Assembly: GCA_049322575.1 (NCBI GenBank)
Contig: JBMORQ010000003.1
Coordinates: 17,719-81,718, forward strand
DNA length: 64,000 bases
From: Patescibacteria group bacterium
GTDB taxonomy: Bacteria > Patescibacteriota > Microgenomatia > UBA1400 > PJMF01
Direction of reading: 5' to 3'
Of this stretch, positions 32,122 through 48,219 are shown in pieces. Numbering within the stretch: position 1 is the first letter of the stretch; each line of letters opens with the position of its first letter. The translations under genes were made by a program, and so were the position numbers. The notes below the pieces were generated by a model that saw only the letters and a program-made list of their open reading frames with translations, made no database searches and was not told the origin of the DNA.

Positions 32122-32838
32122 TTAAACTGATAAAGTTTTTTGGCGAACAAAAGTGGTTGCCTGATACATCGACTCAAATGTTCCAGTATCGAACCATTGA
32201 CCATTAACAAAGGCCACGTCTAATTTGCCTTCTTGTAGATACAAATTGTTGATATCGGTAATTTCTATCTCGCCACGAGAAGATGGTTTGAGCGATTTTG
32301 CCTTTTCCACCACCGTGTTATCGTAGATATATAATCCAGTGACAGCATAATCTGATTTAGGTTGAGTTGGTTTTTCCTCGATCGAGATTGCTTTGCGGTT
32401 TTGATCAAACTGCACCACTCCAAACCTCTCAGGATCACTCACTTTTTTGGCAAAAACCCGACCACCTTGCTCAAAACTCTGAATTGCCTGTGAAAAGTCG
32501 TCTTCGTATAGGTTGTCGCCCAAAATTAAGGTCACATTATCTTGCCCGATAAATTTTTCTCCTATCAGAAAAGCTTGAGCCAAACCTTCTGGCTTCTCCT
32601 GGATTTCGTAAACAAAATCACAGCCAAAATTGCTTCCGCTACCAAGCAACTTTAAAAAATCGCCAGCGTTGTTAGGTGCCACGATTATCATCACGTCATG
32701 AATACCCGCCTTAAGCAGAGTTTCAAGCGGAAAATAGATCATTGGCTTATCGTAGATTGGCAGCAATTGTTTACTCGTGACACGAGTTAAGGGGTGTAAA
32801 CGAGTACCGCTTCCACCAGCTAAGATGATTCCCTTCAT
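32122..32838 (-). CDS. Sugar-1-phosphate nucleotidyltransferase (glucose-1-phosphate thymidylyltransferase-like, short form)
   Basis: '[39 protein letters not shown]' matches the RmlA/NTP_transferase N-terminus; AAGGAAGG RBS. Confidence 0.75.
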
Positions 32839-33019: not shown

Positions 33020-33277
33020 TTACAAGGTGATTAAAAATAAGATTAATCCAGACAACCCTGAAACTGCCAAGTACTCCAGAATAATATTTTTTGTGATAGT
33101 TCCAAGGCGAATGTGAGAAAAGATCCCCCAGAGAAAGTAGAAAACAGAAATTATCACAACAATGATACGTTGCAACAAACGATCAGGCCATGCTGCAAAG
33201 AATAAAAAAGCCAAAATCGATAAAACCAACACCAATAACAAATAGGCTAGTCGGTGACGTAAATACTCTTTTTTCAT
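33020..33277 (-). CDS. Small two- to three-TM membrane protein (hypothetical)
   Basis: 85 aa, highly hydrophobic, start abuts the CAP-domain gene stop. Confidence 0.4.
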   Translation of the reverse strand: MKKEYLRHRLAYLLLVLVLSILAFLFFAAWPDRLLQRIIVVIISVFYFLWGIFSHIRLGTITKNIILEYLAVSGLSGLILFLITL

Positions 33278-34278
33278 TACTGAATAATCCCACCTTTAAA
33301 GAAAATTAATAAAAATGCTATGGTCGAAAAAAGGATTATATGAGCAAAATTATGACCAACAACTCTATCCAGTTTCTTGTGATTACTGACTAAGCCGTCA
33401 TATATCAGAGTCATGATGATTAGAAAAACGACAGCCAAAAAGAAAGCTTTGGTTAGATGCAAAGGATTAAAGATGGGTGAACTCTGAGAAAAGATTCTAA
33501 CAGGTGACTGTCCAGCCAAAATTGAGGCCTGACCAAAAGCTGCTTGTTGGCCATCTTCAGCGAAAACCACAGACTTCGGTTGATTTGCCACTAATTGAGA
33601 AAGATCACTTCCTGGTGAACCAAACATCTGGACGACCAAGGTTGTCTCGAAACCTTGGAGACGACCATCCACAACCGCCACGCCAATCTCAGTAAACTTA
33701 TCATTTACAATATTGGCTCGATGAGTTGGAGACTCCATCCAGGCAGAGACCATTTGATCGGTCGTTTGAAAATCACGAGCTAAATTTTCCCCAGCAACCT
33801 GATAAACATAGCCCGCCTGATTAATGAAAAACCATGGCTCATGTCCATCTGGTGAATTATGTGACCAATACTGCTGGTCAAACATGTTTTGAGCCTTGCT
33901 GAGAGCCGCCGCAGCTAATTTGTCATTATAAGTTAACGTCGACAAGCCCATTTTCTGACGTTCAAGGTTGGTTTTTTCCAAAACCTTATCTGCACTAATT
34001 TCTGAGGAAAATCCTAAGATGCTATCTTTTAATCCAGGAAAGAAACGGACAGCCTGAATAAGAGAAAAAATACCGATAACAATCAGACCCAAATAAAAGA
34101 TTGATTCCGGATGTAATATTTTAGCTCGGTGATGATTTCCACGATGAGGATGAAAGAGATTTCTAAAAGAAACATGCAAAAAATTTAGCTTTTTTGTCGA
34201 GTTTCTTTTAATTCGTTTGGTATGCTTGGGTAGATGAGTATTCATGAGATCAAATAAAGCTAATAAATAACCAAACAC
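33277..34278 (-). CDS. CAP/SCP/PR-1 domain secreted protein with an N-terminal TM anchor
   Basis: 'ENLARDF' and 'VSAWMESPTHRANIV' are CAP-domain signature blocks. Confidence 0.7.
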   Translation of the reverse strand: MFGYLLALFDLMNTHLPKHTKRIKRNSTKKLNFLHVSFRNLFHPHRGNHHRAKILHPESIFYLGLIVIGIFSLIQAVRFFPGLKDSILGFSSEISADKVLEKTNLERQKMGLSTLTYNDKLAAAALSKAQNMFDQQYWSHNSPDGHEPWFFINQAGYVYQVAGENLARDFQTTDQMVSAWMESPTHRANIVNDKFTEIGVAVVDGRLQGFETTLVVQMFGSPGSDLSQLVANQPKSVVFAEDGQQAAFGQASILAGQSPVRIFSQSSPIFNPLHLTKAFFLAVVFLIIMTLIYDGLVSNHKKLDRVVGHNFAHIILFSTIAFLLIFFKGGIIQ

Positions 34279-34573: not shown

Positions 34574-35968
34574 CTATTGATTCATACCACTGGTTTTATC
34601 AGCGGCTTCTTTAACGTTTGCGGGTTTTTTTCTCGCTTCAACTTCTTCGATAAAAGCGTAGTTAATTAGACGTGATACCAATAGATCAAGAACAGCAACA
34701 ATCCAATACCATTTACACAGCCAAACCAGCAGCCAAAAACCTCCTGAGTAACAGTCACACTGGCGCAACCAGTAGAACAGGCCAATGGAAAGCAGGGCTA
34801 TGACCACAGCCACCCAGTGCTTTGTCTGAGTACGCTTCTTCTTGAAATAGTTGTCGAATAACATGGTCACTAATAGTTGCAGGATAAGTAGTATCCAAGG
34901 AACATAGAAACGCCAGCTCACACAAACTCCACTTGTGGCACCGGCTACCTCACCAGTTGGTTGAGAGGTTGGTTGCACCTGCGCTGATTGAGTCGATTCA
35001 TCGGTTGTTTCACCTAAAACTTGCCCGCCTTGACCAACTGGGCGAACGTCAGGCGCCAAGACCTGTCCAGATGTGATAGGAATTTCAGCACTATTAGACC
35101 TAGGGCCAGGAGCACAATCGTTAACTCCAAAAATCTGGAAAGAGTACGCTTGACCTGCTGAAAGCTGAGTAACTGTGTATGATGTAGTATTGCCAATATT
35201 GGTACTTCCGTATGATGCACCATCAGATATTCTAGTAAAAACTAGGGCATAGTGAGTCACTGGGCTGACTGACGTCCAGTTAAGGGTTACAGCATTCGGT
35301 CCGGCACCAGCTACACTCAAAGAAGGCGCGGAGGTAGGAACTTCTGCCTCACAAACAGGTGGCTTGGCTGGATCAGTGTTGGTGGAGCCGGGATTACCAC
35401 CAGGAGGATTCCCCGGATTGCCAGGATTTCCCGGGTTAGAGGGTCCATCACAAGTGATTCTGACAGCAAAATCAAAAACTGTCCGAGAACGTTGAAACTC
35501 GTTACCAGCTAAAATGTCAAAATTAGCATTCCAGGTAAAAACTCTTGTTGAATTGGGAGCCAGACTACCGAGTGAAATATTATCAGTGTCGTATAAGTCT
35601 TGGTATGAGCGATCGCTGGTGGCAACACCCGATATCTGTGTACCGAAATAATCTGTATTACCAGAATAAATGGCCGCAAACATTCTCTCAGCCAGGTTAA
35701 CCGAGCTTTCTGGGGTTGTGTCTGTGGCGTTGAGCAGCAGATTGCATGTTTCGTCACTATCATTATTGGTAATAGTTAATGTCTGAGTGAAATTGTCTCC
35801 AGGCATCATACCACTCTCATTGAATAGTGGAGTATCAGCTGGGGAAATACTACACGGACCATTGTTAGCACAAGTCACAGTTAAATCTGTGCCCGCCTCA
35901 GCTGAAACAACCAAGTTAAGAAAAAATGACAACGAAACTAGAAGTGATAAAAATATTTTTCTAATCAT
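34574..35968 (-). CDS. Cell-surface protein: signal peptide, TasA/camelysin-like N-domain, PGN-repeat linker, FN3 domain, Ser/Thr/Gln-rich stalk, and a C-terminal polytopic (three to four TM) Cys/Trp-rich membrane anchor
   Basis: 'LFNESGMMPGDNFTQTLTITNN' resembles the TasA-family 'kPGD...N.G' block. 'NPGNPGNPGNPPGGNPG' linker. An FN3-like 'VTLNWTSVSPVTHYALVF...YSFQIFGVND' region. Hydrophobic tail 'WILLILQLLVTMLF ... AVVIALLSIGLFYWL ... FWLLVWLCKWYWIVAVLDLLV'. Confidence 0.6.
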   Translation of the reverse strand: MIRKIFLSLLVSLSFFLNLVVSAEAGTDLTVTCANNGPCSISPADTPLFNESGMMPGDNFTQTLTITNNDSDETCNLLLNATDTTPESSVNLAERMFAAIYSGNTDYFGTQISGVATSDRSYQDLYDTDNISLGSLAPNSTRVFTWNANFDILAGNEFQRSRTVFDFAVRITCDGPSNPGNPGNPGNPPGGNPGSTNTDPAKPPVCEAEVPTSAPSLSVAGAGPNAVTLNWTSVSPVTHYALVFTRISDGASYGSTNIGNTTSYTVTQLSAGQAYSFQIFGVNDCAPGPRSNSAEIPITSGQVLAPDVRPVGQGGQVLGETTDESTQSAQVQPTSQPTGEVAGATSGVCVSWRFYVPWILLILQLLVTMLFDNYFKKKRTQTKHWVAVVIALLSIGLFYWLRQCDCYSGGFWLLVWLCKWYWIVAVLDLLVSRLINYAFIEEVEARKKPANVKEAADKTSGMNQ

Positions 35969-38900
35969 TCCATCCTCCAGTTAAACCTGTTTCCAGGAGT
36001 TTTTCGGCATTATCTTTATCCTGCAGCCTTAGTTGCAGCTTGATAGATGTAGCATCGATACCGCGGTGGGGAGTACACTCTCCGCCAGAGCAGGTACCAA
36101 AATATATGTCCTTAACCTCGACTGAATCACTATCTATATCAACTCCGCCGTTAATCACATCCACAACCTTCACTTGATTGTCGGCATCTACCACTGGATG
36201 CTCGTATTCAATATGATATAGACCGCGTTCAAAGCTTGACGCATTCTTAATCGACATCCAAGCCTTAAAAGGCTCCTGTTGTTGTAAAACCACCAAAGGA
36301 TCGGTGGCTGGCACTGGAGTCGGACTGATGGCAGGCATGGTCTGACCCTCAACTAGAGCAAGATTGGAAAGTTCCGACCATTTATGAGCAGAATCCATCG
36401 ATTTAAGTGCAAAATAGTAGGCTTTACCCGCCTCCAAACCTTTGACCAGAAGATCTTCTTGCTCTCCAGCAACTCTAGGAGCTAGACCCTCTGAACCCAG
36501 TGTTAAATTTGAAACCGCTGAAACTCGGCTGGCCGCAGACCAGTTGTCCTGAGTAATTGGTTGCTCAGAATATCGAATTTCATAGCGTAGAACGCTGGGA
36601 GCAAAGTTATCTGAGGGTGCTGTGAATGTCAGGCTATACTCGCCCTCTCCCTCATCATACGCCTTGAGATCGTTGATCGAGCTTGGTGCTTGATCATCCC
36701 ATGTGACGTAGATCGAATTCATCTTTCCTTTGGCTCCAGTACTGGCTACGGACCAGAAGTAAAGCATGTGGTCATCCGGCTCACCTTCAAGTGTGAAACC
36801 CACACCTGATTTGAGTGAGCCAGTTTTGATCTGACCATCCAGTAAATATCTGTAAGCTACTTCGCCGATGGTATCAGGATTGTCACTATAGATGGTAAAC
36901 AAAGCTCCACTGTCAACAACAGTCGCTGCAGTGTTGACGTCGTCCAAGTAGACGAGAGTGTTTTGCGATTGATCGCCTGTGTTACCTGCTTGTAGTTTAA
37001 GATTGAGCTGAGACGAGGCATCGTCGGCAACGTATATTGAAACATATTGCCAACCACTTGCCTGCCCAGATGCACCTGACAACGCCTGAAGTCTCGAAAG
37101 ATCTTTTGCCCAGACTTGGTATACCAGTTTGTCATTGATGTAGGCCGACAAGGCTGGTTCATCAAAGCCAGGATCAACTTCGCTCGTAACCATATTAAAC
37201 CAGAAACCAACCGAACGAAGTCCACGACCGGAATTATCAATATTCTGCGAAATGCTGTTCACACCTTGGCCAGAACCGTCTAAAACCGCCATAAAGGTAG
37301 CGCTACGTGGCTTAACTCCTGCCTGTCCGTTTTCAACCGCAGCAACCTGGCCCTGAGTGCCCCATGACTCTAATCCTTTGGAAAAATCGCCATTGTACAC
37401 TTTGTTTTGGATATCTTTTTCTGGACTGTTGGTTACGGTAATTGTCGAACCAGATGTGCTATCAATTGTGACAATAACTTGAGAAGTGGGAGAGGTGACT
37501 ACACTAGCATTGCCGGCTTCATCAACTGCTGAAAAGGAAATAGTGTACTCTCCGTCAGGTACACCCGTAGTGTCCCAGCTGTAAATTGTTTCGTTGTTGT
37601 AAGTGTTGGCTCCACCAGTCTGATCTGGGAAAGAAGGGACGGCGTTATTGCTTGCATCACGTGCCGTCAATAACCAAGAAGCCGGATTGGCATCAGATAA
37701 AGTAACGTAAAAGTCTATTGTTGCATTAGCTGCATAGCTATCGCCATCACTTGGGCTGTTAATAGCAGCTGCTGGCGCTAAAGTATCTAAAGTAATCTCA
37801 CAGTAATCACTCCAGGCACCTGGCCAATCAACTCCTGCATCAAAATTTCCATCATGATTATTATCCTCAAAGGCTCTAACTCTAGTATTCCACAAACCTT
37901 GAACGCCTGAACCCGAGCCAAATGAAGAGAATAGTGTGTAATTGTCTGTGGCATAGAAATAACCAATTGAACCAGAAGGGTAAGTTACTTCACGTTGATA
38001 GGCAATGTTTCGCCCAGAAACTGCAGACCAATTATGTGCGACTCTAGGCGCTGAAGTATTACCCGTGTTGGTTGTTGCGCCACAAGCTAGGTCGAGAGGC
38101 CTTTCATCGGGTGTGGTGGAAGACGGAGGGATGTTCCAGCCATCATTGGTTGGAGTTGCGGGCGTCCAGACAGAAGTAGATAAGCTACCGGCAATTAACT
38201 CAGTATCACTAAAGCCCTGATCGTAGGATTCAAAATTTGTCTGCCAGGCTTCAGTCACCATGTTAAAGTTACATGTCATGTTCTCAAGACTTGTATCAGC
38301 ATCCACAGGCAAACTCACCTCGTAGCTAAACCAATGCTCATCAGCCCCATAAAAACTGTTGGGGTAATAAGTATGACTATTGATGATGACCATGTCTGGG
38401 TCATGAGTGGGATTGTTGGTTACAAAATCATTAAAAGCACTCAAGGAACCACTGTATTTGAGATCGCTCTGGACGTTTGTTAGATCGCCTGGAGTGGCTG
38501 GTGCTGCAGTATGCCAGTTGTAGTGAACCTGAAGTTGTAGAGCGTCACAAAGAGCAGTGTCACTACCTGGCAAGATCGAGACGCGTGAAAGATATTTCAC
38601 ATTGAGAGAACCTAGTTTCTGCACGTAGATATCTCGAGAAACCACGTCTCCTGGCCAAAGACTGTTACTAATTGGACCAAAATCAGCTTGATCTGAGCGT
38701 AGTCCAATATCAAGAGTCGAAGCAGTAAAAACACTATTATAAGAAGTCTCGAGATCGGCAATTCCAGACAGTGTTGGCAGAGTTGTCGAGACCAAAATGA
38801 CTAAGGCAAAAAAACTAGTAACTTTGAGCCAGGTAATCGACCTCTTCTTCAAGAAGTCCACAAAATTTTTGATGGTGGTTAGATCATTCTTTATCTTCAT
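35961..38900 (-). CDS. 979-aa secreted multidomain protein with a SipW-cognate-type signal peptide, a TasA-like N-domain, Ig-like, CBM4/9-like and FN3-like domains
   Basis: The N-terminus 'IADLETSYNSVFTASTLDIGL' aligns position-for-position with the TasA-like 'FDDTEVSANNTFVAGQIDLEV' of the gene at 39596-40408. 'LWPGDVVSRDIYVQKLGSL' is a TasA block. 'NGDFSKGLESWGTQG' is a CBM_4_9-like start. Confidence 0.65.
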   Translation of the reverse strand: MKIKNDLTTIKNFVDFLKKRSITWLKVTSFFALVILVSTTLPTLSGIADLETSYNSVFTASTLDIGLRSDQADFGPISNSLWPGDVVSRDIYVQKLGSLNVKYLSRVSILPGSDTALCDALQLQVHYNWHTAAPATPGDLTNVQSDLKYSGSLSAFNDFVTNNPTHDPDMVIINSHTYYPNSFYGADEHWFSYEVSLPVDADTSLENMTCNFNMVTEAWQTNFESYDQGFSDTELIAGSLSTSVWTPATPTNDGWNIPPSSTTPDERPLDLACGATTNTGNTSAPRVAHNWSAVSGRNIAYQREVTYPSGSIGYFYATDNYTLFSSFGSGSGVQGLWNTRVRAFEDNNHDGNFDAGVDWPGAWSDYCEITLDTLAPAAAINSPSDGDSYAANATIDFYVTLSDANPASWLLTARDASNNAVPSFPDQTGGANTYNNETIYSWDTTGVPDGEYTISFSAVDEAGNASVVTSPTSQVIVTIDSTSGSTITVTNSPEKDIQNKVYNGDFSKGLESWGTQGQVAAVENGQAGVKPRSATFMAVLDGSGQGVNSISQNIDNSGRGLRSVGFWFNMVTSEVDPGFDEPALSAYINDKLVYQVWAKDLSRLQALSGASGQASGWQYVSIYVADDASSQLNLKLQAGNTGDQSQNTLVYLDDVNTAATVVDSGALFTIYSDNPDTIGEVAYRYLLDGQIKTGSLKSGVGFTLEGEPDDHMLYFWSVASTGAKGKMNSIYVTWDDQAPSSINDLKAYDEGEGEYSLTFTAPSDNFAPSVLRYEIRYSEQPITQDNWSAASRVSAVSNLTLGSEGLAPRVAGEQEDLLVKGLEAGKAYYFALKSMDSAHKWSELSNLALVEGQTMPAISPTPVPATDPLVVLQQQEPFKAWMSIKNASSFERGLYHIEYEHPVVDADNQVKVVDVINGGVDIDSDSVEVKDIYFGTCSGGECTPHRGIDATSIKLQLRLQDKDNAEKLLETGLTGGWND

Positions 38901-39459
38901 TGCTTAATGACTCAGTTGCTAGCTTTTTGGCAGATTTTCTTGCTCTGAAAATTCTGGCAATTTCTTTTTTTATGGTATTAAATTCGTTATAGGCAAGTAA
39001 AGTAGCAGGAATAACAATTAATAAAACAAAACCCATCTGGGTTTGAGAAAACATCACAATTTTACCCAAATATGGTATATGGAAGATTACCTTGCCGATT
39101 ACTCTCTTTTGTTCGGCTAATTCAGGATCTGCTTCTTCATTAGCATCACCTTTTGTTTGATAAAGCACACGGTCTTCTCGGTTCACTATACCAGTAATTC
39201 GGTGAGTATAAGTCTTATTGGAGCCAATCACTGGTACAGCAGTGATAATGTCTCCTATCTTGTATTCTGCCTGATCTTTAACTATGACCAAGCTACCAAC
39301 GTTAAGTGCTGGCTCCATTGAACCGGACAGAACAGCAAAAACTCTAAGTTTCAGCGGAGTGTTGAACTTGGATAATGCCAACATTCCAGCAACTACAACG
39401 ATAAAGATAGCCACCATCCAGGAAACAAGATTGCTGATAAATGATATTTTACTTTTCAT
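38884..39459 (-). CDS. sipW: SipW-type (archaeal/ER-type) signal peptidase I
   Basis: N-terminal TM, 'VLSGSMEP' catalytic Ser motif, 'THRI' and 'TKGDAN' blocks, and a C-terminal TM. 191 aa, the same size class as B. subtilis SipW. Confidence 0.75.
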   Translation of the reverse strand: MKSKISFISNLVSWMVAIFIVVVAGMLALSKFNTPLKLRVFAVLSGSMEPALNVGSLVIVKDQAEYKIGDIITAVPVIGSNKTYTHRITGIVNREDRVLYQTKGDANEEADPELAEQKRVIGKVIFHIPYLGKIVMFSQTQMGFVLLIVIPATLLAYNEFNTIKKEIARIFRARKSAKKLATESLSNEDKE

Positions 39460-39595
39460 GGTTAAAGCTAGTTTAGCTTAACTTGCTAACATTTAGCTTA
39501 CATTTTTATTATTGCTTTTTAAAACTTGGCCTTTTGCCGGTTATTGCCTATGTGGCGGGGACAATCGCCCCGCCACAAGCAATTTAACAAAATCA

Positions 39596-40408
39596 TTACG
39601 GAGTCCAGGTAGAGCACTCGAAATTTTCGTTGTGTCTTGATTGAACTGCGTAGAAAGTGATGTCACCAACGACATCGTCTCCCTGAGCGACGTTATTTGT
39701 TGCAACACCGCTACAAGTGAAACCACCGTTGACAGCATCGACAGTCATGGTACCGAAGCACCAAGCCTGACCCAAATACTCAGCTCCAGGAGCTGGAGTA
39801 AATGGAGTTCCAACTGTACCTCCAAAAACGTGGGTAGTAGAGTCAACCAAATCGAAGGTTTGACCACCATTACCAGCACCTTGAGGTAAGTTGTTGAGGG
39901 TGGTTGGAGGCATAACGACTGACTCGCCTGCTTCGTAAACACCATCCCCATCGTCGTTCCAGAAGAAGAAGTTCAACTGGTCATCGAGCTCACCATTCCA
40001 GTCTCCTGCAGTGGTGTCTTCATCAGCTGACTCGGCGTCGTTAACGGCGTCGTCGTCTGATGCGGTTAATTCGATGTTAGAACAAACCCATGAAGGATTG
40101 TCGCTAACTTGCAAGGTTGCGTAACCGTAGCCGGAATCACCTGGTTTGACATCATCAAAATTAAAGAAAATTTGAGATGCTGTCAAATCTTGGACTCCCC
40201 AAGTTCCAGCTGTGTCAGCGACATAGCCAGCACCTTGGTCAACCCAAGCTTGGTGACCAACTTCTAAATCAATCTGTCCAGCGACGAACGTATTGTTAGC
40301 TGAAACTTCGGTATCATCGAAGTAAGCCAGAGTACCAGCAGAAACGCCGGCCACGACTACACCTAACAAAACTGCGCTTGATAAGATTTTCTTCATTGCA
40401 CTATTCAC
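39596..40408 (-). CDS. TasA/camelysin-family secreted fibre subunit with a SipW-cognate signal peptide
   Basis: 'KKILSSAVLLGVVVAGVSAGTLAYFDDTEVSANNTFVAGQIDLEVG' is the SipW-cognate class signal plus mature N-terminus. 'FDDVKPGDSGYGYATLQVSDN' is a TasA block. A GGGGG RBS lies upstream of the ATG at 40408. Confidence 0.7.
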   Translation of the reverse strand: MNSAMKKILSSAVLLGVVVAGVSAGTLAYFDDTEVSANNTFVAGQIDLEVGHQAWVDQGAGYVADTAGTWGVQDLTASQIFFNFDDVKPGDSGYGYATLQVSDNPSWVCSNIELTASDDDAVNDAESADEDTTAGDWNGELDDQLNFFFWNDDGDGVYEAGESVVMPPTTLNNLPQGAGNGGQTFDLVDSTTHVFGGTVGTPFTPAPGAEYLGQAWCFGTMTVDAVNGGFTCSGVATNNVAQGDDVVGDITFYAVQSRHNENFECSTWTP

Positions 40409-40838
40409 CCCCTTCCCAAGAAGAGTTATTTTTAAGTCAAAACTTAAACAAAAAACTCCGCCCTTCGAAAACGAAGTTAGCTACATCACTCCTAATTAAA
40501 GAAGTGCTGGGCAGGCAGAGTCCTTGTAAAGTCTTTCGTGCACTAAGTATTACGTGTTTTTTTTTGCTTTGTCAATTAGTGGGTTTGAGTAATTAATATT
40601 TTTTGCCAAGTGAGTCAAAATAGCAAAAAGGCATGATAGATAGGCGTGAGAATCCGATGAGATTTTTATAAGTTTTTTTCTGAGTTTCTGCACTTATGAG
40701 TAAATTATTTAACACAACACTAAAGCCATAGAAGTCTTGTGCGTGAAAAAATGGCAATGACGATTTTGATTTTTATATGATCTTAAAAAACTGCAAAAAC
40801 TCTTTTGTTCAAAAATCCAAAGTCTGAAAAATCCCGAG

Positions 40839-40924: not shown

Positions 40925-40996
40925 GGCCCCATCGTCTAGCGGCTAGGACATCGGGTTCTCATCCCGGTAACTGGGGTTCGATTCCCCATGGGGTCA
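40925..40996 (+). tRNA. tRNA-Glu (anticodon CUC)
   Basis: The cloverleaf GGCCCCA-TC-GTCTAGCGGCTAGGAC-A-TCGGG-TTCTCAT-CCCGG-TAAC-TGGGG-TTCGATT-CCCCA-TGGGGTC-A has the same architecture as E. coli tRNA-Glu. Confidence 0.75.
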
Positions 40997-41119
40997 CATC
41001 ATAAAAAAAGGATGCTTTACAGCAACTTTTTTATGATTGATACCGACAAATATATTTTTTCACTTCCCATTCACATCTAAATTACCAACTTGTCTGGCTC
41101 ATCGAGCACGAAGGAAAAA

Positions 41120-41380
41120 ATGAAAGTTCAAGTTTTGGGATCGGGCTGCGCCACCTGCAAAAAGCTATATCAGATTGTAAAAGAATCCATCGTAGAAATG
41201 GAGCAAGACCTGGAGCTTGAATATCTCACAGGAAACGAAGGCATAAATCGAATCATCCAACTTGGAGCGATGAACAGTCCAGTGCTAGTAGTGAATAATA
41301 GAATTGCCATGGTCGGTTTTTCACCAGACAAAGAAAAATTAAAAGCAGCCATTAGAAAAGCATTGGAGGAAACAAAATAA
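41120..41380 (+). CDS. Small thioredoxin-fold redox-active disulfide protein (redox_disulf_2-like)
   Basis: 'MKVQVLGSGCATCKKL' N-terminal CxxC with about 80 aa. AAGGAAAAA RBS before the ATG at 41120. Its stop overlaps the permease start. Confidence 0.65.
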   Translation: MKVQVLGSGCATCKKLYQIVKESIVEMEQDLELEYLTGNEGINRIIQLGAMNSPVLVVNNRIAMVGFSPDKEKLKAAIRKALEETK

Positions 41381-42357
41381 TGGATGTTTTTGCACCTCTT
41401 CAGGTTTTAGCTGATCGGGTAACTTACAACTTTCTAGGCATCACCCATGATAGTTATTTAGCCGGAGTAGTGAACTTCTGGATTTATGACGTAATTAAAA
41501 TCAGTCTACTGTTGATTGTCATCAACTATTTTATGGCGATCACACGGTATTATTTTCCAGTTGAAAAGGTTAGAGATTTGTTAGCAGAAAAAAAGTGGTA
41601 CGGAGTCAACTACTTTTTGGCAGCTTTACTGGGAGTTGTAACTCCTTTTTGTTCTTGTTCATCTATACCCTTGTTTGTTGGTTTTCTGTCTGCAGGTATA
41701 CCTTTGGGTGTTACCTTTGCTTTTCTGATTAGCTCGCCGCTAATAAACGAGTCATCGCTTTTTTTATTTCCCAGTGTTTTTGGAGTGAGAGCTACAGTTT
41801 TGTACAATCTTTTTGGCTTAGTTGTCGCCATGCTGGGCGGTTTTCTTATTCAGAAACTCAAGCTTGAAAAATATCTTCAACCCAATGTTTTGGTGTTCAC
41901 TGGCAAAAAACAATTACTTGAAAAGTATCAAGGCAAAAGCATTCCTTTTGCTGAAAAAATTAAGCTATGGACAAACGAAATGTGGCAGATTACAAAAAAG
42001 ATCTATCCGTACGTCTTAATTGGAGTAACACTCGGTGCCCTCATCCACGGTCTTATGCCAGAATCGATTATCAGCGACACTTTATCAATATCATCAGGAT
42101 GGAGTGTGCCTTTGGCAGTTGTACTGGGCGTACCTCTTTATGCTAATTCCGTAAGTATCATTCCTATAGTCGAGGCGCTGATAAACAAGGGGGTACCAAT
42201 GGGCACCGCTCTTGCATTTATGACAGCTACAGTTACTTTATCCATTCCAGAAGCACTCATGCTCAAAAAAATACTTAAATGGCAACTTTTAGCTTTCTTT
42301 TTCGGCATAACTATTATAGGTATTATCCTGATGGGTTACTTATTTAACCTTTTATAG
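41380..42357 (+). CDS. ArsP/DUF318-family permease
   Basis: About 8 TM helices with 'TPFCSCSSIPLFVGFL' (the TPFCSCS motif typical of the PF03773 permease family). It is co-transcribed with the small CxxC protein, as is commonly seen for this family. Confidence 0.65.
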   Translation: MDVFAPLQVLADRVTYNFLGITHDSYLAGVVNFWIYDVIKISLLLIVINYFMAITRYYFPVEKVRDLLAEKKWYGVNYFLAALLGVVTPFCSCSSIPLFVGFLSAGIPLGVTFAFLISSPLINESSLFLFPSVFGVRATVLYNLFGLVVAMLGGFLIQKLKLEKYLQPNVLVFTGKKQLLEKYQGKSIPFAEKIKLWTNEMWQITKKIYPYVLIGVTLGALIHGLMPESIISDTLSISSGWSVPLAVVLGVPLYANSVSIIPIVEALINKGVPMGTALAFMTATVTLSIPEALMLKKILKWQLLAFFFGITIIGIILMGYLFNLL

Positions 42358-44929: not shown

Positions 44930-45402
44930 CTCCTTTCTATTATTTACTGAGCTGACTGCTATGTTTAACAGTAACTCGCAGCAACCTAAGTAGCTTAACT
45001 AAAGCTTGCTCTTAGTATGCCTGTGTCTTAGAGTGTCAGGTTTATGTGTGTCTTAAAGAAAAGGCGTGTAAAGATCGTGTAAGAGGATTAATCGATGTTT
45101 TTAATAGGCAACCTTGCCGATATTGACTGGCTGCCTAAACGAACTATTTAAAAATCGAATTTTCTAACGAAAAACTGATTTTTGTGAGAGAAGTCATTCT
45201 CGAACGCAGAAATGATAAGGCTACTAAGTTTGATCAAACGACCTTAGTATTAATAAAAAGTAGCTTTGTGCTGCTGCTCTCTACACATCCTTTACATCTG
45301 TTAAAAAGGCCTATATATCGCAAAATATACATATTTAATACACTAAAAATCACTTTGATAGGGTTGATAGATCTGGTAGAGCATGATAGTATCAACAAAC
45401 TT

Positions 45403-48219
45403 ATGACAAAAAAACTACTAACCCTCACTGGATTAGCAATTAGCAGCCTTGTGCTTGCCCCAAAGACCTATGCTGGCAACTTGCCAGGTTTTGTCGTCAA
45501 TCACGACAATGTTGAGGAAACAATCGAAAACGGCGACGGTACTCAACGTACACAGGAAATAATCCCTAGCACCTATTTAGATGCTGCACGAAATAGTGAT
45601 ATCTTATTCGGTCACCAATCTGTCGGTCGTGTCATTTCTTACGGCGATGACAACACCTCAAACGGAGGTTTAGATGACTTGGTGAGCATGTATACCAATG
45701 GTTCACGATATCAGATTAATATGGATGGCAATCAGCCAAATGGCCTCCCCGATACAGTTTCAGCAAACTGGTATGTGACAAATAATGGTGTGGGAGAAGT
45801 ATTAATTGGTGACAATTTTAATCCCGTTTCCAAAATGGAGCACTTTGTCAATCTACTAGCTAGATCAGATATTAATCAAAACGTCAAGCTTGCATTAATG
45901 AAGTTCTGCTACGTTGACTTCACTAATTACACCGCAGCACAGGTCTGGAATGAACTCCCCGTCAACGTGGGTAGTACTACTGTATACGGTTACCGCGGCA
46001 TGATGGAGTATCTGGAAACGACCTATCCCAACATCAATTTCGTTTGGGTCACAGCTCCTCTAACTAGATCTAATCCTATTAGTGGCTATGGCACCAATGC
46101 CAATCGTTATGACTACAACACTCTAGTCAGGAACTACACTGCAGCCAACAATAAGGTTTTGTTTGACATTGCAGATATTGAGTCCCACGATTTATCTGGC
46201 AACTATTGCTATAACGCAACTGAGCGTGAGTATGAGTGTGACGGTACCTTGGCAGAAAACTATGTCAATGGTACTGGTCATCCCAACACTTTAGGCGCTT
46301 CTCGACTATCTAGAGCATTCTGGTGGTTAATGGCACGCGCCTCAGGTTGGAACCCTGGCTCATCGAATTATTCGCCTGTTGCCAGTTTCACCAGTAGCGT
46401 CAACGCTGCCTTGGTCCCTGCCACAGTGAGTTTTGATGCCTCGGCTTCTAATGACCCAGATGGCAATATCGTTAGCTATAGCTGGAACTTTGGTGATGGT
46501 AGCACAGGCTCAGGTGTAACTACCAGCCACACCTACACCCAGGCTGGTACTTACCAAGTCACTCTAACAGTCACCGATAATGCAGGAGCAACCGGCACAG
46601 CTTCAACTACTCTAACCATAAGTAGCGAGAACTCTGGCACTGGCGCTTTTAACGAAATAGCTGGTCAAGTTTCAATCGAAGCCGAACATTATCATTCAAA
46701 CCAAGCAGCTTCCAATGGCTCTTGGTCTGAAACAACCACCGTTGCAGCCTTCTCTGGTGAGTCGTATTTGGTGACCCCAGACAATGGCTTATGGAGAAGC
46801 GAGTATCAACTAAATGACTCTCCAATGGTGAGTTACGAGGTTAATTTTAGCTCTCCAGGTACTTATTACCTCTGGGTTCGCACCAATAATCCAAGCAACA
46901 CCAGTGACTCTCTCTACTTCGGAATCGACGGTAGCAGAGTTGGAGCCATGGAATTAAGTAATCTCAACAACTGGGGATGGAGCAGAACGGTTCGCATGAG
47001 TTCTAGCCCTGCGTCTGTCACCATCGGCTCAGCCGGCACTCATTCCATCAATATTTGGATGAGGGAGGATGGAGCAACCGTTGACAAGGTCATCTTAACC
47101 ACCAATGCCTCCTATGTGCCATCAGGCTCTGGACTAGCCGAGAGCCCACGAGGAGAGGTCAATCAATTGCCAGTGGCATCGGCCACTGCTACCCCAACTT
47201 CAGGAAATATTCCACTTGAAGTTAGCTTTGATGCCTCGGCTTCTAATGACCCAGATGGCAATATCGTTAGCTATAGCTGGAACTTTGGTGATGGTAGCAC
47301 AGGCTCAGGTGTAACTACCAGCCACACCTACACCCAGGCAGGCAGTTTCACTGCCACCTTGACCGTCACCGATAACGACGGTGGCACCGCCAACCACACC
47401 ACTAGCATCACGGTGGTGGATCCAAATGCCAACAATCAGCCAACCGCCAGCTTCACCCAGGACAAAACCAGCGGTGTTGCACCTGTTGAAGTAAACTTTG
47501 ATGGCTCGGCTTCAACTGATTCTGATGGCACAATCACCGACTACTCTTGGAACTTTGGTGATGGCAATACAGGATCTGGCGTCACTACCAGCCACACCTA
47601 CACCCAGGCGGGGTCATATCAAGTCACCTTAACTGTGACTGATGATGACGGGGCAACCGCCACCGCAAATCTCACCATCACCGTGACTGTACCCAACGGC
47701 ACGGGGGCTTTTGTTGAGACGGCTGGCAATGTCTCTATGGAAGCTGAGCATTTCATGAGCAATGCCTCAACGACTATCGGAAGCTGGAATGCAGCCACTG
47801 CTCTTGCTTCTTATACCGGTGAGTCTTACATCACTACTACAGACAGCAATGTCTGGAGAAGCGAGTATCAACTAAATGACTCTCCAATGGTTAGCTATGA
47901 GATCAACTTCAGTACTCCTGGTACATATTACCTCTGGGTTCGTACCAACAATCCAAGCGGCACTAGCGATTCTGTCCACTTTGGTCTTAACAACGCTCGA
48001 GTTGGTACCATGGAACTGAGCAATGTCGGCAGCTGGGGTTGGAGCCGAACCCTTCGTATGAGTTCAAGCCCTGCTTCAATTACGGTGAGCAGTGCTGGCA
48101 CTCACACCTTCAATATCTGGATGAGAGAGGACGGAACCAACGTAGACAAGATTATCTTGACCACTAACGCCTCCTACACTCCAAGCGGTGAAGGAATAGC
48201 CGAGAGCAGCAGACAATAA
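45403..48219 (+). CDS. Large secreted protein: signal peptide, SGNH/GDSL-like hydrolase-like domain, PKD domain, CBM-like beta-sandwich, two PKD domains, and a second CBM-like beta-sandwich
   Basis: Signal 'MTKKLLTLTGLAISSLVLAPKTYAG'. 'ILFGHQSVG' (GDSx-like) and 'NGTGHPNTLG' (block-V-like). Three 'SFDASASNDPDGNIVSYSWNFGDGSTGSGVTTSHTYTQAG' PKD units. Two 'SEYQLNDSPMVSYE...YYLWVRTNNPS...WGWSRT' units of about 170 aa. Confidence 0.8.
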   Translation: MTKKLLTLTGLAISSLVLAPKTYAGNLPGFVVNHDNVEETIENGDGTQRTQEIIPSTYLDAARNSDILFGHQSVGRVISYGDDNTSNGGLDDLVSMYTNGSRYQINMDGNQPNGLPDTVSANWYVTNNGVGEVLIGDNFNPVSKMEHFVNLLARSDINQNVKLALMKFCYVDFTNYTAAQVWNELPVNVGSTTVYGYRGMMEYLETTYPNINFVWVTAPLTRSNPISGYGTNANRYDYNTLVRNYTAANNKVLFDIADIESHDLSGNYCYNATEREYECDGTLAENYVNGTGHPNTLGASRLSRAFWWLMARASGWNPGSSNYSPVASFTSSVNAALVPATVSFDASASNDPDGNIVSYSWNFGDGSTGSGVTTSHTYTQAGTYQVTLTVTDNAGATGTASTTLTISSENSGTGAFNEIAGQVSIEAEHYHSNQAASNGSWSETTTVAAFSGESYLVTPDNGLWRSEYQLNDSPMVSYEVNFSSPGTYYLWVRTNNPSNTSDSLYFGIDGSRVGAMELSNLNNWGWSRTVRMSSSPASVTIGSAGTHSINIWMREDGATVDKVILTTNASYVPSGSGLAESPRGEVNQLPVASATATPTSGNIPLEVSFDASASNDPDGNIVSYSWNFGDGSTGSGVTTSHTYTQAGSFTATLTVTDNDGGTANHTTSITVVDPNANNQPTASFTQDKTSGVAPVEVNFDGSASTDSDGTITDYSWNFGDGNTGSGVTTSHTYTQAGSYQVTLTVTDDDGATATANLTITVTVPNGTGAFVETAGNVSMEAEHFMSNASTTIGSWNAATALASYTGESYITTTDSNVWRSEYQLNDSPMVSYEINFSTPGTYYLWVRTNNPSGTSDSVHFGLNNARVGTMELSNVGSWGWSRTLRMSSSPASITVSSAGTHTFNIWMREDGTNVDKIILTTNASYTPSGEGIAESSRQ
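46432..47339 (+). repeat. Intragenic direct repeats: a 113-bp perfect DNA repeat (46432-46544 and 47227-47339) encoding identical PKD-domain cores. Together with the duplicated CBM-like module (about 46640-47150 and 47700-48210), this indicates recent internal duplication.
   Basis: Identical nucleotide strings 'TTTGATGCCTCGGCTTCTAATGACCCAGATGGCAATATCGTTAGCTATAGCTGG...' are seen at both positions. Confidence 0.75.

What the first reader, a model, noticed from the sequence alone, without database searches (positions are those of the whole stretch)
34574..40408. SipW/TasA-type fibre operon with a 979-aa giant and a membrane-anchored TasA-fold protein
Four minus-strand genes overlap head to tail: a tasA-like gene, sipW, a 979-aa gene and a 464-aa gene. 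SipW carries the SGSMEP-type signal peptidase motif. Two of the products carry N-termini that align residue for residue: 'FDDTEVSANNTFVAGQIDLEV' in the TasA-like subunit and 'ADLETSYNSVFTASTLDIGL' in the 979-aa protein. This is the pattern of SipW-cognate signal peptides and mature N-termini in the B. subtilis TasA/TapA system. All three substrates also carry the TasA-family '..PGD......N.GSL' block. One is decorated with Ig-like, CBM4/9-like and FN3-like domains. Another joins a TasA-like domain to an FN3 domain and a three- to four-helix Cys/Trp-rich membrane anchor, an architecture not described for TapA. Together these suggest a donor-strand-type TasA fibre with a dedicated membrane-embedded base and a giant adhesin-like tip or accessory subunit. 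Such a system has not been characterised outside Bacillus biofilm matrix and archaeal bundling pili.
Basis: partly seen in the sequence, partly recalled or inferred. Interest (0 to 1): 0.85.

Follow-up and report, generated by a model that had tools for sequence, protein, structure and literature searches.

The report
TasA-type anchored pilus operon, Patescibacteria
An uncultured ultrasmall (CPR/Patescibacteria) bacterium carries a conserved four-gene cassette that most likely builds a TasA-like protein fibre, with its own signal peptidase, a giant tip protein and a membrane-embedded base; the cassette is real, but the design has already been proposed for archaeal "Tafi" fimbriae.

Summary
The four minus-strand genes exist as described, in a Patescibacteria (Microgenomates-type) MAG.

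- **A (270 aa)** is a TasA-family subunit. It passes TIGR04088 and PF12389, and its confident AlphaFold model has one significant PDB match, the TasA fibre 8AUR.
- **B** is an archaeal/ER-type signal peptidase I (SipW class) with the Ser/His/Asp motifs intact.
- **C (979 aa)** starts with a diverged SipW-cognate signal and a TasA-like domain (profile-profile 98 %, E 6e-14). A variable region and an unannotated conserved C-terminal module follow.

The order TasA, SipW, giant, D recurs in all 11 other loci sampled. A strong hairpin follows the major-subunit gene in 11 of 12.

The best model is a tip-first donor-strand pilus. C supplies the first strand, A polymerises, and D accepts the last strand and anchors the fibre.

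However, D is not a SipW-cognate substrate, the pairwise N-terminal similarity is not significant, and only two of three junctions overlap. The novelty was overstated: haloarchaeal Tafi (TafC/TafA/TafF/TafD), BsaA and AbpX loci use the same logic. This is a new variant of a known kind.

The parts
40546..40575 (-). Promoter-like hexamers (TTGACA-18-AATACT) about 140 nt upstream of A
   Evidence: Consensus scan only. The number of such sites in the region is not above the shuffle expectation, so this is weak.
39596..40408 (-). A: TasA-family major fibre subunit. It has a SipW-cognate signal (predicted cleavage ...GTLA|YFDD), a donor-strand segment at about residues 29-46, and a jellyroll domain with an acidic DDGDG insert.
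   Evidence: TIGR04088 28.7 bits (cutoff 19) and PF12389 31.2 bits (cutoff 22.5), N-terminal 52 residues only. AF2 model pLDDT 89.7, with residues 21-40 at low confidence and coil. Foldseek PDB top hit is 8AUR TasA fibre, E 1.7e-5, probability 1.0; second is the 7UEG ABP pilin. The most conserved family columns lie in the N-terminal strand and the KPGD block.
39532..39592 (-). Stem-loop starting 4 nt after the stop codon of A, before sipW
   Evidence: MFE -30.2 kcal/mol, z -4.55, 0 of 200 shuffles as stable. A long, near-perfect hairpin occupies the same position in 11 of 12 related loci although the sequences differ. There is no U-tract, so its function (attenuator or 3' stabiliser) is inferred.
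38884..39459 (-). B: SipW-class (archaeal/ER-type) signal peptidase I with N- and C-terminal TM segments
   Evidence: TIGR02228 102.6 bits (cutoff 51.85). Bacillus SipW equivalog NF046067 113.5 bits, below its cutoff of 190. SGSMEP (Ser47), THRI (His86) and KGDAN (Asp105) are present. TM segments at 11-29 and about 134-160.
38166..38900 (-). C residues 1-245: long N-terminal signal-anchor, diverged SipW-cognate/donor-strand segment (TLS|GIADLETSYNSVFTASTLD) and TasA-like domain
   Evidence: The family of this domain has 325 cluster representatives. It aligns to the A family at 98.2 %, E 5.6e-14, over 197 columns. 22 of 40 members hit PF12389. 13 of 40 hit TIGR04088, 3 hit TasA and 3 hit the BsaA models. 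Window C scores 16.5 bits on the family motif HMM built without it (0 of 4000 shuffles). C itself does not reach TIGR04088.
36321..38165 (-). C residues 246-860: variable beta-rich middle region (putative adhesin part)
   Evidence: Only sub-threshold Pfam hits: Big_13/Big_7, CBM_4_9 and fn3, E 1e-3 to 2e-2. Relatives carry LTD and other domains instead, and their lengths range from 316 to 1364 aa.
35964..36320 (-). C residues 861-979: conserved unannotated C-terminal module (Y.I.Y.H ... LYFGTCS..G.C.PH)
   Evidence: Found at the extreme C-terminus of 49 distinct related proteins. No Pfam or PDB sequence match. The two Cys residues covary.
35444..35968 (-). D residues 1-175: ordinary Sec-type signal (…VVSAEA|GTDL) followed directly by a TasA-like domain without a donor-strand segment
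35084..35353 (-). D residues 206-295: FN3 spacer domain flanked by Pro/Gly/Asn-rich and Gln/Thr-rich linkers
   Evidence: Pfam fn3 E 3e-9. The family profile hits FN3 structures down to E 1.5e-16 (titin; FN3con 5.8e-13). Invariant C206 and C285.
34649..34924 (-). D residues 349-440: three predicted TM helices, Trp/Cys/Tyr-rich, with four conserved Cys residues at the outer face and a cytoplasmic Lys/Arg loop and tail
   Evidence: Hydropathy peaks at about 351-372, 386-404 and 413-436; KKKR loop between TM1 and TM2; conserved C349, C404, C406, C418 and WLC.WYW. The module also occurs on other ectodomains.

Best explanation
The block encodes a surface-anchored fibre of the TasA superfamily, assembled by donor-strand complementation.

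**Shown**
- A is a TasA-fold protein with a SipW-cognate signal.
- B is a SipW-class signal peptidase with its catalytic motifs.
- C begins with a diverged SipW-cognate signal plus a TasA-like domain and carries a large variable ectodomain.
- D is a TasA-like domain without the signal/donor-strand segment, tethered through FN3 and linkers to three TM helices.
- The four genes travel together, and B/C and C/D are translationally coupled.

**Inferred mechanism** (by analogy with TasA/TapA, PMC9674648 and PMC10151520, and with Tafi, PMC11821415)
1. SipW cleaves A and C, exposing their N-terminal strands.
2. C inserts its strand into the groove of a first A subunit. It therefore acts as initiator and ends up at the distal tip, with its variable region as an adhesin.
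3. Each complemented A frees its own strand for the next A, so the fibre grows at the membrane-proximal end.
4. D has a groove but no strand to pass on. It accepts the last strand, which terminates growth and anchors the fibre in the cytoplasmic membrane. The FN3 domain and linkers span the envelope.
5. The hairpin after gene A keeps A in excess over B, C and D.
For: - **Family and fold:** (A; B; C; D).
- **D lacks the motif:** this holds for every one of about 70 family members, which all start AGTDL.V.C directly after an AXA signal.
- **Model behaviour:** in A the segment before the first domain strand is low-confidence coil (pLDDT 54-58). In D the first strand is packed at pLDDT about 90. 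A matches the fibre form 8AUR best, while D matches the self-complemented monomer 5OF2/5OF1 best in Foldseek.
- **Synteny:** TasA (1-3 copies), SipW, giant, D in all 11 further distinct loci with enough upstream DNA, including one in a different neighbourhood.
- **No other TasA-like ORF** occurs in the window.
- **Gene overlaps:** 17 and 8 nt.
- **Hairpin:**
- **No alternative assembly route:** no LPxTG and no HExxH in any of the four proteins. This argues against sortase assembly and against a zincin-type protease.
Against: - No multimer modelling or coordinates were available. Strand-into-groove pairing, the polarity and the roles of C and D are therefore inferred, not shown.
- The register of D's first strand against A and C is ambiguous. 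D has about as many residues before PGD (30) as B. subtilis TasA (34, from memory), so a short strand of its own cannot be excluded.
- Window C retains a full TasA-like domain whose groove is left unexplained by a pure tip role.
- In close relatives that lack this domain, the N-terminal 'T.A.F...N....G' pattern is visible by eye but not statistically significant.
- C misses TIGR04088.
- Nothing shows that SipW rather than the housekeeping peptidase processes any of the three proteins.
Confidence: 0.6

Rival explanations
1. Same fibre, opposite logic. D is the membrane platform on which assembly starts: the first A docks its strand into D and subunits add distally. C is a minor or decorating subunit, or a second fibre type, rather than the initiator at the tip.
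For: D is the only membrane-integral component, and chaperone-usher pili start from a groove-only subunit (FimH). C in this window keeps a complete TasA-like domain with its own groove, so it could sit inside a fibre. Some loci have several TasA paralogues (L016, L019).
Against: In TasA a subunit releases its donor strand only after its own groove is complemented (PMC9674648). Growth therefore proceeds from a strand donor towards groove-bearing monomers, and a groove-only protein cannot start that cascade. Close relatives of C lack the TasA-like domain altogether, which fits an end position. The Tafi modelling reached the tip-first, TafF-last order (PMC11821415).
Confidence: 0.2
2. No heteropolymer forms. 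A makes a free, unanchored matrix fibre or stays soluble, as with secreted TasA/BsaA. C and D are independent surface proteins that merely reuse a TasA-like jellyroll as a binding domain and share an operon for co-regulation.
For: BsaA polymers are mostly released and need no accessory proteins (PMC7395162). D's FN3+3TM module is a generic anchor that is also found on unrelated ectodomains. The TasA-like fold resembles many carbohydrate-binding jellyrolls in the fold-search lists.
Against: The order is strictly conserved and the four genes are translationally coupled across divergent Patescibacteria, including a locus in another neighbourhood. D's TasA-like domain lacks exactly the donor-strand motif in all family members. 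C-type proteins retain that motif at family level.
Confidence: 0.13
3. A is a camelysin-like (M73) protease and the block is a secreted-protease maturation cassette.
For: Pfam names PF12389 'Camelysin metallo-endopeptidase', and one homologue is labelled 'M73 family metallopeptidase'.
Against: There is no HExxH or other metal-site motif in A, C or D. The Pfam match covers only the signal and first strand. The structural match is to the TasA fibre subunit. Family conservation concentrates in the donor strand and PGD block, which is an interface pattern (PMC10151520).
Confidence: 0.03

Closest known systems
Haloarchaeal Tat-fimbriae (Tafi: TafC tip, TafE adapter, TafA core, TafF anchor, TafD signal peptidase; PMC11821415, PMC12337348)
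   Same: The logic matches almost part for part. There is a dedicated SPase I in the locus. The tip protein has an N-terminal donor strand, a pilin-like domain and an adhesin-like domain (compare C). There is a major subunit (compare A). There is a membrane protein with an ordinary Sec signal, an N-terminal pilin-like domain predicted to accept the last strand, and three TM helices, which 'terminates assembly by anchoring' (compare D).
   Different: Tafi is archaeal, and its pilins are Tat-exported with a fold topology reported as distinct from ABP/TasA pilins. It has an extra adapter (TafE) and a DUF5305 protein, and no FN3 spacer. Here the subunits have the TasA fold, are Sec/SipW-dependent and are bacterial. 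Homology between D and TafF was not tested. TafF's role is itself only an AlphaFold prediction.
Bacillus subtilis tapA-sipW-tasA (PMC9674648, PMC10151520)
   Same: A SipW-class peptidase sits in an operon with a TasA-fold subunit that carries the cognate signal and an N-terminal donor strand. An accessory protein has a TasA-like N-terminal strand and is proposed to give the first strand (TapA, compare C).
   Different: Gene order differs. TapA has a complete V-set Ig-like fold, is 253 aa and has no TasA-like domain; C does not hit the TapA model. B. subtilis has no TasA-domain membrane protein comparable to D. B scores below the Bacillus SipW equivalog cutoff. A carries a large acidic insert.
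Archaeal bundling pili AbpA/AbpB (PMC9245690) and AbpX-type loci (bioRxiv 10.64898/2026.01.04.697558)
   Same: These are TasA-superfamily donor-strand filaments. AbpB was proposed as a strand-donating initiator with distal adhesin-like domains. AbpX loci often encode tip proteins and SLH, LPXTG or membrane anchors that are predicted to co-assemble by strand complementation. A and D both list 7UEG among their best structural matches.
   Different: ABP loci have no dedicated peptidase. The anchors described there are wall-binding (SLH, LPXTG) or unrelated TM proteins, not a TasA-like domain fused to FN3 and three TM helices.
Clostridium perfringens sipW-bsaABC (PMC7395162)
   Same: SipW-dependent secretion of a TasA-like protein that forms very stable polymers, with readthrough from a short major-subunit transcript into accessory genes. 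Three members of the C-N family hit the BsaA model TIGR04090.
   Different: BsaA polymers are largely released and self-sufficient. No membrane-anchored TasA-domain protein or giant tip has been described.
Chaperone-usher pili terminators (FimI/PapH; PMC12122975, PMC10673952)
   Same: The concept is shared: one specialised subunit ends polymerisation and anchors the rod, and fibre length is set by competition with the major subunit.
   Different: These are unrelated proteins and machinery with opposite polarity. CU terminators have a strand but a non-accepting groove, whereas D would have a groove but no strand. Here there is no outer membrane, usher or chaperone.

Membership tests
TasA/camelysin family (Pfam PF12389) - protein A | Pfam PF12389 score above the gathering threshold | tested here: met
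   31.2 bits against 22.5, but only profile positions 2-53 of 196. A distant homologue of A (P0050) matches positions 10-191.
TasA/camelysin family - protein A | SipW-cognate class signal peptide (TIGR04088) | tested here: met
   28.7 bits against a cutoff of 19.
TasA/camelysin family - protein A | TasA-like jellyroll fold | tested here: met
   AF2 pLDDT 89.7. Foldseek PDB top hit, and the only hit with E below 1e-3, is 8AUR TasA fibre (E 1.7e-5, probability 1.0).
TasA/camelysin family - protein A | Polymerisation by N-terminal donor-strand exchange | not testable with these tools
   No multimer prediction was available. Indirect evidence only: the N-terminal segment is unpacked in the model and is the most conserved part of the family.
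SipW-class (archaeal/ER-type) signal peptidase I - protein B | TIGR02228 sigpep_I_arch above cutoff | tested here: met
   102.6 bits against 51.85.
SipW-class signal peptidase I - protein B | Catalytic Ser/His/Asp motifs (SGSMEP, THRI, GDAN; residue roles from B. subtilis SipW mutagenesis, recalled from memory) | tested here: met
   Motifs at residues 45, 85 and 104.
Bacillus SipW equivalog (NF046067) - protein B | Score above the equivalog cutoff | tested here: not met
   113.5 bits against 190. B belongs to the same class but is not filed as the Bacillus orthologue.
TasA-like SipW-cognate family - N-domain of C | Homology to TasA-family profiles, including the signal and first strand | tested here: met
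   hhalign of A3 against A1 gives 98.2 %, E 5.6e-14, 197 columns. 22 of 40 family members hit PF12389 and 13 of 40 hit TIGR04088.
TasA-like SipW-cognate family - N-domain of C | C itself reaches the curated models (PF12389, TIGR04088) | tested here: not met
   PF12389 E 0.049, 13.9 bits, below 22.5. No TIGR04088 hit. C is a diverged member, supported only by family-level and shuffle tests.
TapA (TIGR04087) - protein C | Match to the TapA model | tested here: not met
   No hit for C. One relative gives E 0.087. C may work like TapA but is not a TapA homologue.
TasA-like fold - N-domain of D | Structural and profile similarity to TasA | tested here: met
SipW-cognate substrates - protein D | SipW-cognate signal or N-terminal motif | tested here: not met
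   No TIGR04088 hit. At most 3.5 bits for any D-family member on the motif HMMs. Canonical AXA site.
Tafi-type anchored donor-strand pilus (TafF-like anchor) - protein D | Sec signal + pilin-like N-domain + about three C-terminal TM helices, encoded next to the pilin, tip and peptidase genes | tested here: met
   Architecture; locus. The description of TafF comes from PMC11821415. This is similarity of design only.
Tafi-type anchored donor-strand pilus - protein D | Sequence or structural homology to TafF | not tested
Sortase-assembled Gram-positive pili | LPxTG sorting signals and a pilus sortase in the locus | tested here: not met
   No LPxTG in A-D and no sortase among the called neighbours. 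One related locus (L005) does carry a sortase.

The most novel reading that the evidence does not exclude
Microgenomates-type Patescibacteria are thought to live attached to other cells. They may use this cassette as a dedicated attachment organelle: a TasA-fold donor-strand pilus that is nucleated by a rapidly diversifying giant tip adhesin carrying a previously unannotated C-terminal module. The pilus would be covalently independent of the wall and held in the cytoplasmic membrane by a groove-only terminator subunit. That would be the first bacterial TasA-family fibre with a defined tip and membrane base, and a candidate determinant of host range.
Probability: 0.25. Interest if true: 0.8.

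Novelty: new variant of a known kind. Interest (0 to 1): 0.55.

Why it matters
Very little is known about how CPR/Patescibacteria contact other cells beyond type IV pili. A conserved, compact cassette gives concrete candidates to look for in cryo-ET and to express heterologously: a major subunit, its peptidase, a variable giant tip and a membrane anchor.

For the TasA field, it offers a bacterial system in which both fibre ends may be genetically defined. The strand-only or strand-plus-domain initiator (C) and the groove-only membrane terminator (D) are what is missing or disputed for B. subtilis TasA/TapA. A direct test of the termination/anchoring idea, so far only predicted for archaeal TafF, would become possible.

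The work also flags two unannotated modules: the 'GTCS..G.C.PH' C-terminal domain and the FN3+3TM Cys/Trp anchor.

Tried and rejected
- **Pairwise BLASTP** among A, C and D found nothing significant. Profiles were needed.
- **Sequence searches against PDB chains** with A alone, the A-family profile, C alone and the C-terminal-module profile gave no TasA or other meaningful hit. The D-family profile found only FN3.
- **TIGR04088/TIGR04087 on the N-termini of C, D and eight related giants** gave no significant hit.
- **Motif-HMM test for the 'strand-only' giants.** I tested whether giants lacking the TasA-like domain still carry the donor-strand motif. Only L014 was significant (2 of 4000 shuffles). 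The rest were not, so this stays a by-eye observation.
- **Contaminated profile.** An initial reading of the weak 'TasA(C-N)' hits in those giants was wrong. They come from LTD-type columns in the long A3 profile.
- **Low-stringency hhalign** to fix the register of D's first strand against A and C was ambiguous. The two profiles gave different registers with zero confidence.
- **C-terminal module vs D N-domain:** only a 9-column 'TC..G.C' match at 3.9 % probability. Rejected as homology.
- **Promoter/terminator consensus scan:** not above shuffle expectation, and it missed the hairpin because there is no U-tract.
It succeeded with 16 sequences.
- **Protease reading** rejected: no HExxH.
- **Sortase pilus** rejected: no LPxTG.
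- **Literature:** no paper in the held library describes a TasA/SipW fibre in Patescibacteria beyond a census line.
Full report
**What is there.** The window (about 42 % GC) comes from a Patescibacteria MAG. All three large proteins are 100 % identical to NCBI entries from one 123,950-bp contig, named 'MAG: TasA family protein', 'hypothetical protein ACOZAN_00385' and 'fibronectin type III domain-containing protein' [Patescibacteria group bacterium]. Four minus-strand ORFs occupy 34574-40408:

| Gene | Coordinates | Length |
|---|---|---|
| A | 39596-40408 | 270 aa |
| B | 38884-39459 | 191 aa |
| C | 35961-38900 | 979 aa |
| D | 34574-35968 | 464 aa |

B/C overlap by 17 nt and C/D by 8 nt. 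A and B are separated by 136 nt. No other ORF in the 64-kb window matches the TasA-like profiles.

**Protein A.**
- A passes TIGR04088 (SipW-cognate signal, 28.7 bits against a cutoff of 19) and PF12389 (31.2 against 22.5). The Pfam match covers only the signal and first strand.
- Fifty homologues were found, mostly in Patescibacteria, reaching haloarchaeal 'SipW-cognate' and 'TasA family' proteins. One of these matches PF12389 over its full length.
- Sequence and profile searches against PDB chains find no TasA.
- The AlphaFold2 model is confident (pLDDT 89.7, pTM 0.80). Its only significant PDB match is the TasA fibre subunit 8AUR (E 1.7e-5, probability 1.0). The archaeal bundling pilin 7UEG comes second.
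- The segment between the predicted cleavage site (GTLA|YF) and the first domain strand is coil at pLDDT 54-58. It is also the most conserved part of the family, together with KPGD. That is the pattern expected of a donor strand (PMC9674648, PMC10151520).
- A has no HExxH motif.

**Protein B.** B passes the archaeal-type SPase I model (102.6 bits against 51.85). It scores below the Bacillus SipW equivalog cutoff (113.5 against 190). It has SGSMEP, THRI and GDAN and N- and C-terminal TM segments.

**Protein C.**
- Pairwise BLASTP with A is not significant, and C reaches neither PF12389 (E 0.049) nor TIGR04088.
- An exhaustive search with residues 1-265 found 325 cluster representatives. The domain is almost always N-terminal, in proteins of 196 to 1209 aa.
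- An alignment of 40 of these (A3) matches the A family at 98.2 % probability, E 5.6e-14, over 197 columns that include the signal and first strand.
- Of the 40 members, 22 hit PF12389, 13 hit TIGR04088, and 3 each hit the TasA and BsaA models.
- C's own N-terminus scores above all 3000 and 4000 shuffles on family HMMs built without it.
- The rest of C gives only sub-threshold Ig-like, CBM4/9 and FN3 hits. It is replaced by LTD and other domains in relatives.
- The last 110 or so residues form a conserved module (Y.I.Y.H ... LYFGTCS..G.C.PH). It sits at the C-terminus of 49 distinct related proteins and has no Pfam or PDB match.
- The closest full-length relatives of C lack the TasA-like domain. 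They go from signal and a short N-terminal segment straight to the region that aligns with C residue 236. The resemblance of that short segment to the donor-strand motif is visible by eye but mostly not significant.

**Protein D.**
- D has a canonical signal (…VVSAEA|GTDL). It shows no trace of the SipW-cognate or donor-strand motif, and neither does any of about 70 family members. All start AGTDL.V.C.
- The family profile aligns with the C-N family at 85 %, E 6e-6, and with the A family at E 2e-4. In both cases the alignment runs from the PGD block to the last 'N.YQ....FD' strand.
- A model of residues 20-182 is confident (pLDDT 86.5, pTM 0.81).
- Foldseek ranks monomeric TasA (5OF2, 5OF1) and 7UEG as the top three of 350,542 chains, with marginal E-values of about 1e-2.
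- After the N-domain come a Pro/Gly/Asn linker, an FN3 domain (E 3e-9) and a Gln/Thr-rich linker. Three predicted TM helices follow, with a cytoplasmic KKKR loop. Four conserved outer-face Cys residues and WLC.WYW are also present.
- The same FN3+TM module is attached to other ectodomains elsewhere.

**Conservation.**
- D homologues occur only in Patescibacteria lineages: Paceibacterota, Beckwith-, Woese-, Collier- and Levyibacteria. A few TPA MAGs carry implausible labels.
- In all 11 further distinct loci with enough upstream DNA, the order is TasA-like (1-3 copies), SipW, giant, D. One of these (L003) lies in a different neighbourhood.
- A stable stem-loop lies 4 nt after the stop codon of A (-30.2 kcal/mol, z -4.55). 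A long hairpin of unrelated sequence occupies the same place in 11 of 12 related loci. This suggests attenuation or 3' stabilisation that makes the major subunit more abundant than B, C and D. It parallels the sipW-bsaA readthrough arrangement (PMC7395162).

**Mechanism.** In TasA, the N-terminal strand of one subunit completes the next. A subunit frees its strand only once its own groove is filled, and TapA is thought to give the first strand (PMC9674648, PMC10151520). Applied to this block:
1. C carries a strand and a large variable ectodomain. It would be the initiator and would end up as the distal tip.
2. A would be the repeating unit.
3. D has a groove-bearing domain but no strand and is integral to the membrane. 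It would accept the last strand, stop growth and anchor the fibre.

The parts list and folds are shown. The strand pairing, the polarity and the SipW specificity are inferred, because no multimer modelling was possible. Three points remain open. C's own groove is unexplained. D's first-strand register is unresolved. D's Foldseek E-values are marginal.

**Comparison and novelty.**
- The same design was proposed in 2025 for haloarchaeal Tafi: TafC tip, TafE adapter, TafA core, and TafF with a Sec signal, a pilin-like N-domain and three TM helices that 'terminates assembly by anchoring'. TafD is the dedicated peptidase (PMC11821415).
- A 2026 preprint reports tip and SLH, LPXTG or membrane anchors in many TasA-superfamily loci (10.64898/2026.01.04.697558).
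- TasA homologues in Patescibacteria were already listed in 2022 (PMC9245690).
- SipW-BsaA has been characterised in C. perfringens (PMC7395162).
- I found no paper describing this cassette, the D architecture or the C-terminal module in Patescibacteria.
- I therefore rate it as a new variant of a known kind, with moderate interest. It is a well-defined bacterial system for testing both ends of a TasA-type fibre, and a candidate attachment organelle of CPR bacteria.

Noticed in passing
window 33277-34278, 33020-33277 and 32122-32838 (all minus strand): A CAP/YkwD-domain membrane protein, an 85-aa membrane protein and an RmlA-like nucleotidyltransferase follow D directly. CAP plus the small protein follow D in 14 related loci. 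However, the wider backbone (RRF, M50 protease, DUF3048) is also syntenic, and three loci lack them. This may therefore be backbone synteny rather than functional linkage.
   Followed up: partly
window 35964-36320 (C residues 861-979): An unannotated conserved module of about 110 aa (Y.I.Y.H ... LYFGTCS..G.C.PH) lies at the extreme C-terminus of 49 distinct related proteins. These include a SipW fusion (L008:6276-7997) and a minimal 316-aa protein (L019). It has no Pfam or PDB hit. The two Cys residues covary: 'GTES' variants also lose the second Cys.
   Followed up: partly
L021:2-2077, L023:7012-9453, L017, L022, L024: The Cys/Trp-rich three-TM module of D, usually with FN3, is attached to other ectodomains such as Big_13/Ig-like domains. 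It looks like a reusable Patescibacteria membrane anchor.
   Followed up: partly
L003:9363-10499: In one related locus, a bAvd gene (accessory protein of diversity-generating retroelements) and an extra 205-aa TasA-like gene sit immediately after D.
   Followed up: no
L005:3512-8615; L010:8016-10038: These are variant cassettes. L005 has a 1493-aa LTD/Ig giant plus a sortase between D and CAP. L010 has an additional giant fragment and a 232-aa D-like N-domain without an anchor.
   Followed up: no
window 39950-39964 (A residues 149-153 region; DDGDG at residues 152-156): A carries a long acidic insert with a DDGDG motif. The motif is conserved in the family consensus (W.DDGDNV...GE) and could be a Ca2+ site, as reported for other donor-strand matrix filaments.
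   Followed up: no
window 40454-40478 (minus strand): A terminator-like hairpin with a U-run lies inside the putative 5' leader of gene A, downstream of the promoter-like site at 40546-40575. No Rfam family matches it.
   Followed up: no
L011, L012, L015, L019, L021, L022 (record titles): Several TPA-assembled MAG contigs carry this Patescibacteria-type cassette but are labelled 'uncultured Pseudomonadales', 'Vitreimonas sp.', 'Planctomycetia' or 'Gammaproteobacteria'. These are probably taxonomic mislabels.
   Followed up: no
window 45184-48219 and 48344-50746 (plus strand): A 1011-aa predicted surface protein has three PKD domains and GH115_C-like domains. It is followed by an 800-aa ORF with no Pfam match.
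   Followed up: no
window 40925-40997 and 41090-42357 (plus strand): tRNA-Glu(CTC) lies just upstream of the cassette, on the opposite strand. A thioredoxin-like gene and an ArsP-type permease follow it.
   Followed up: no
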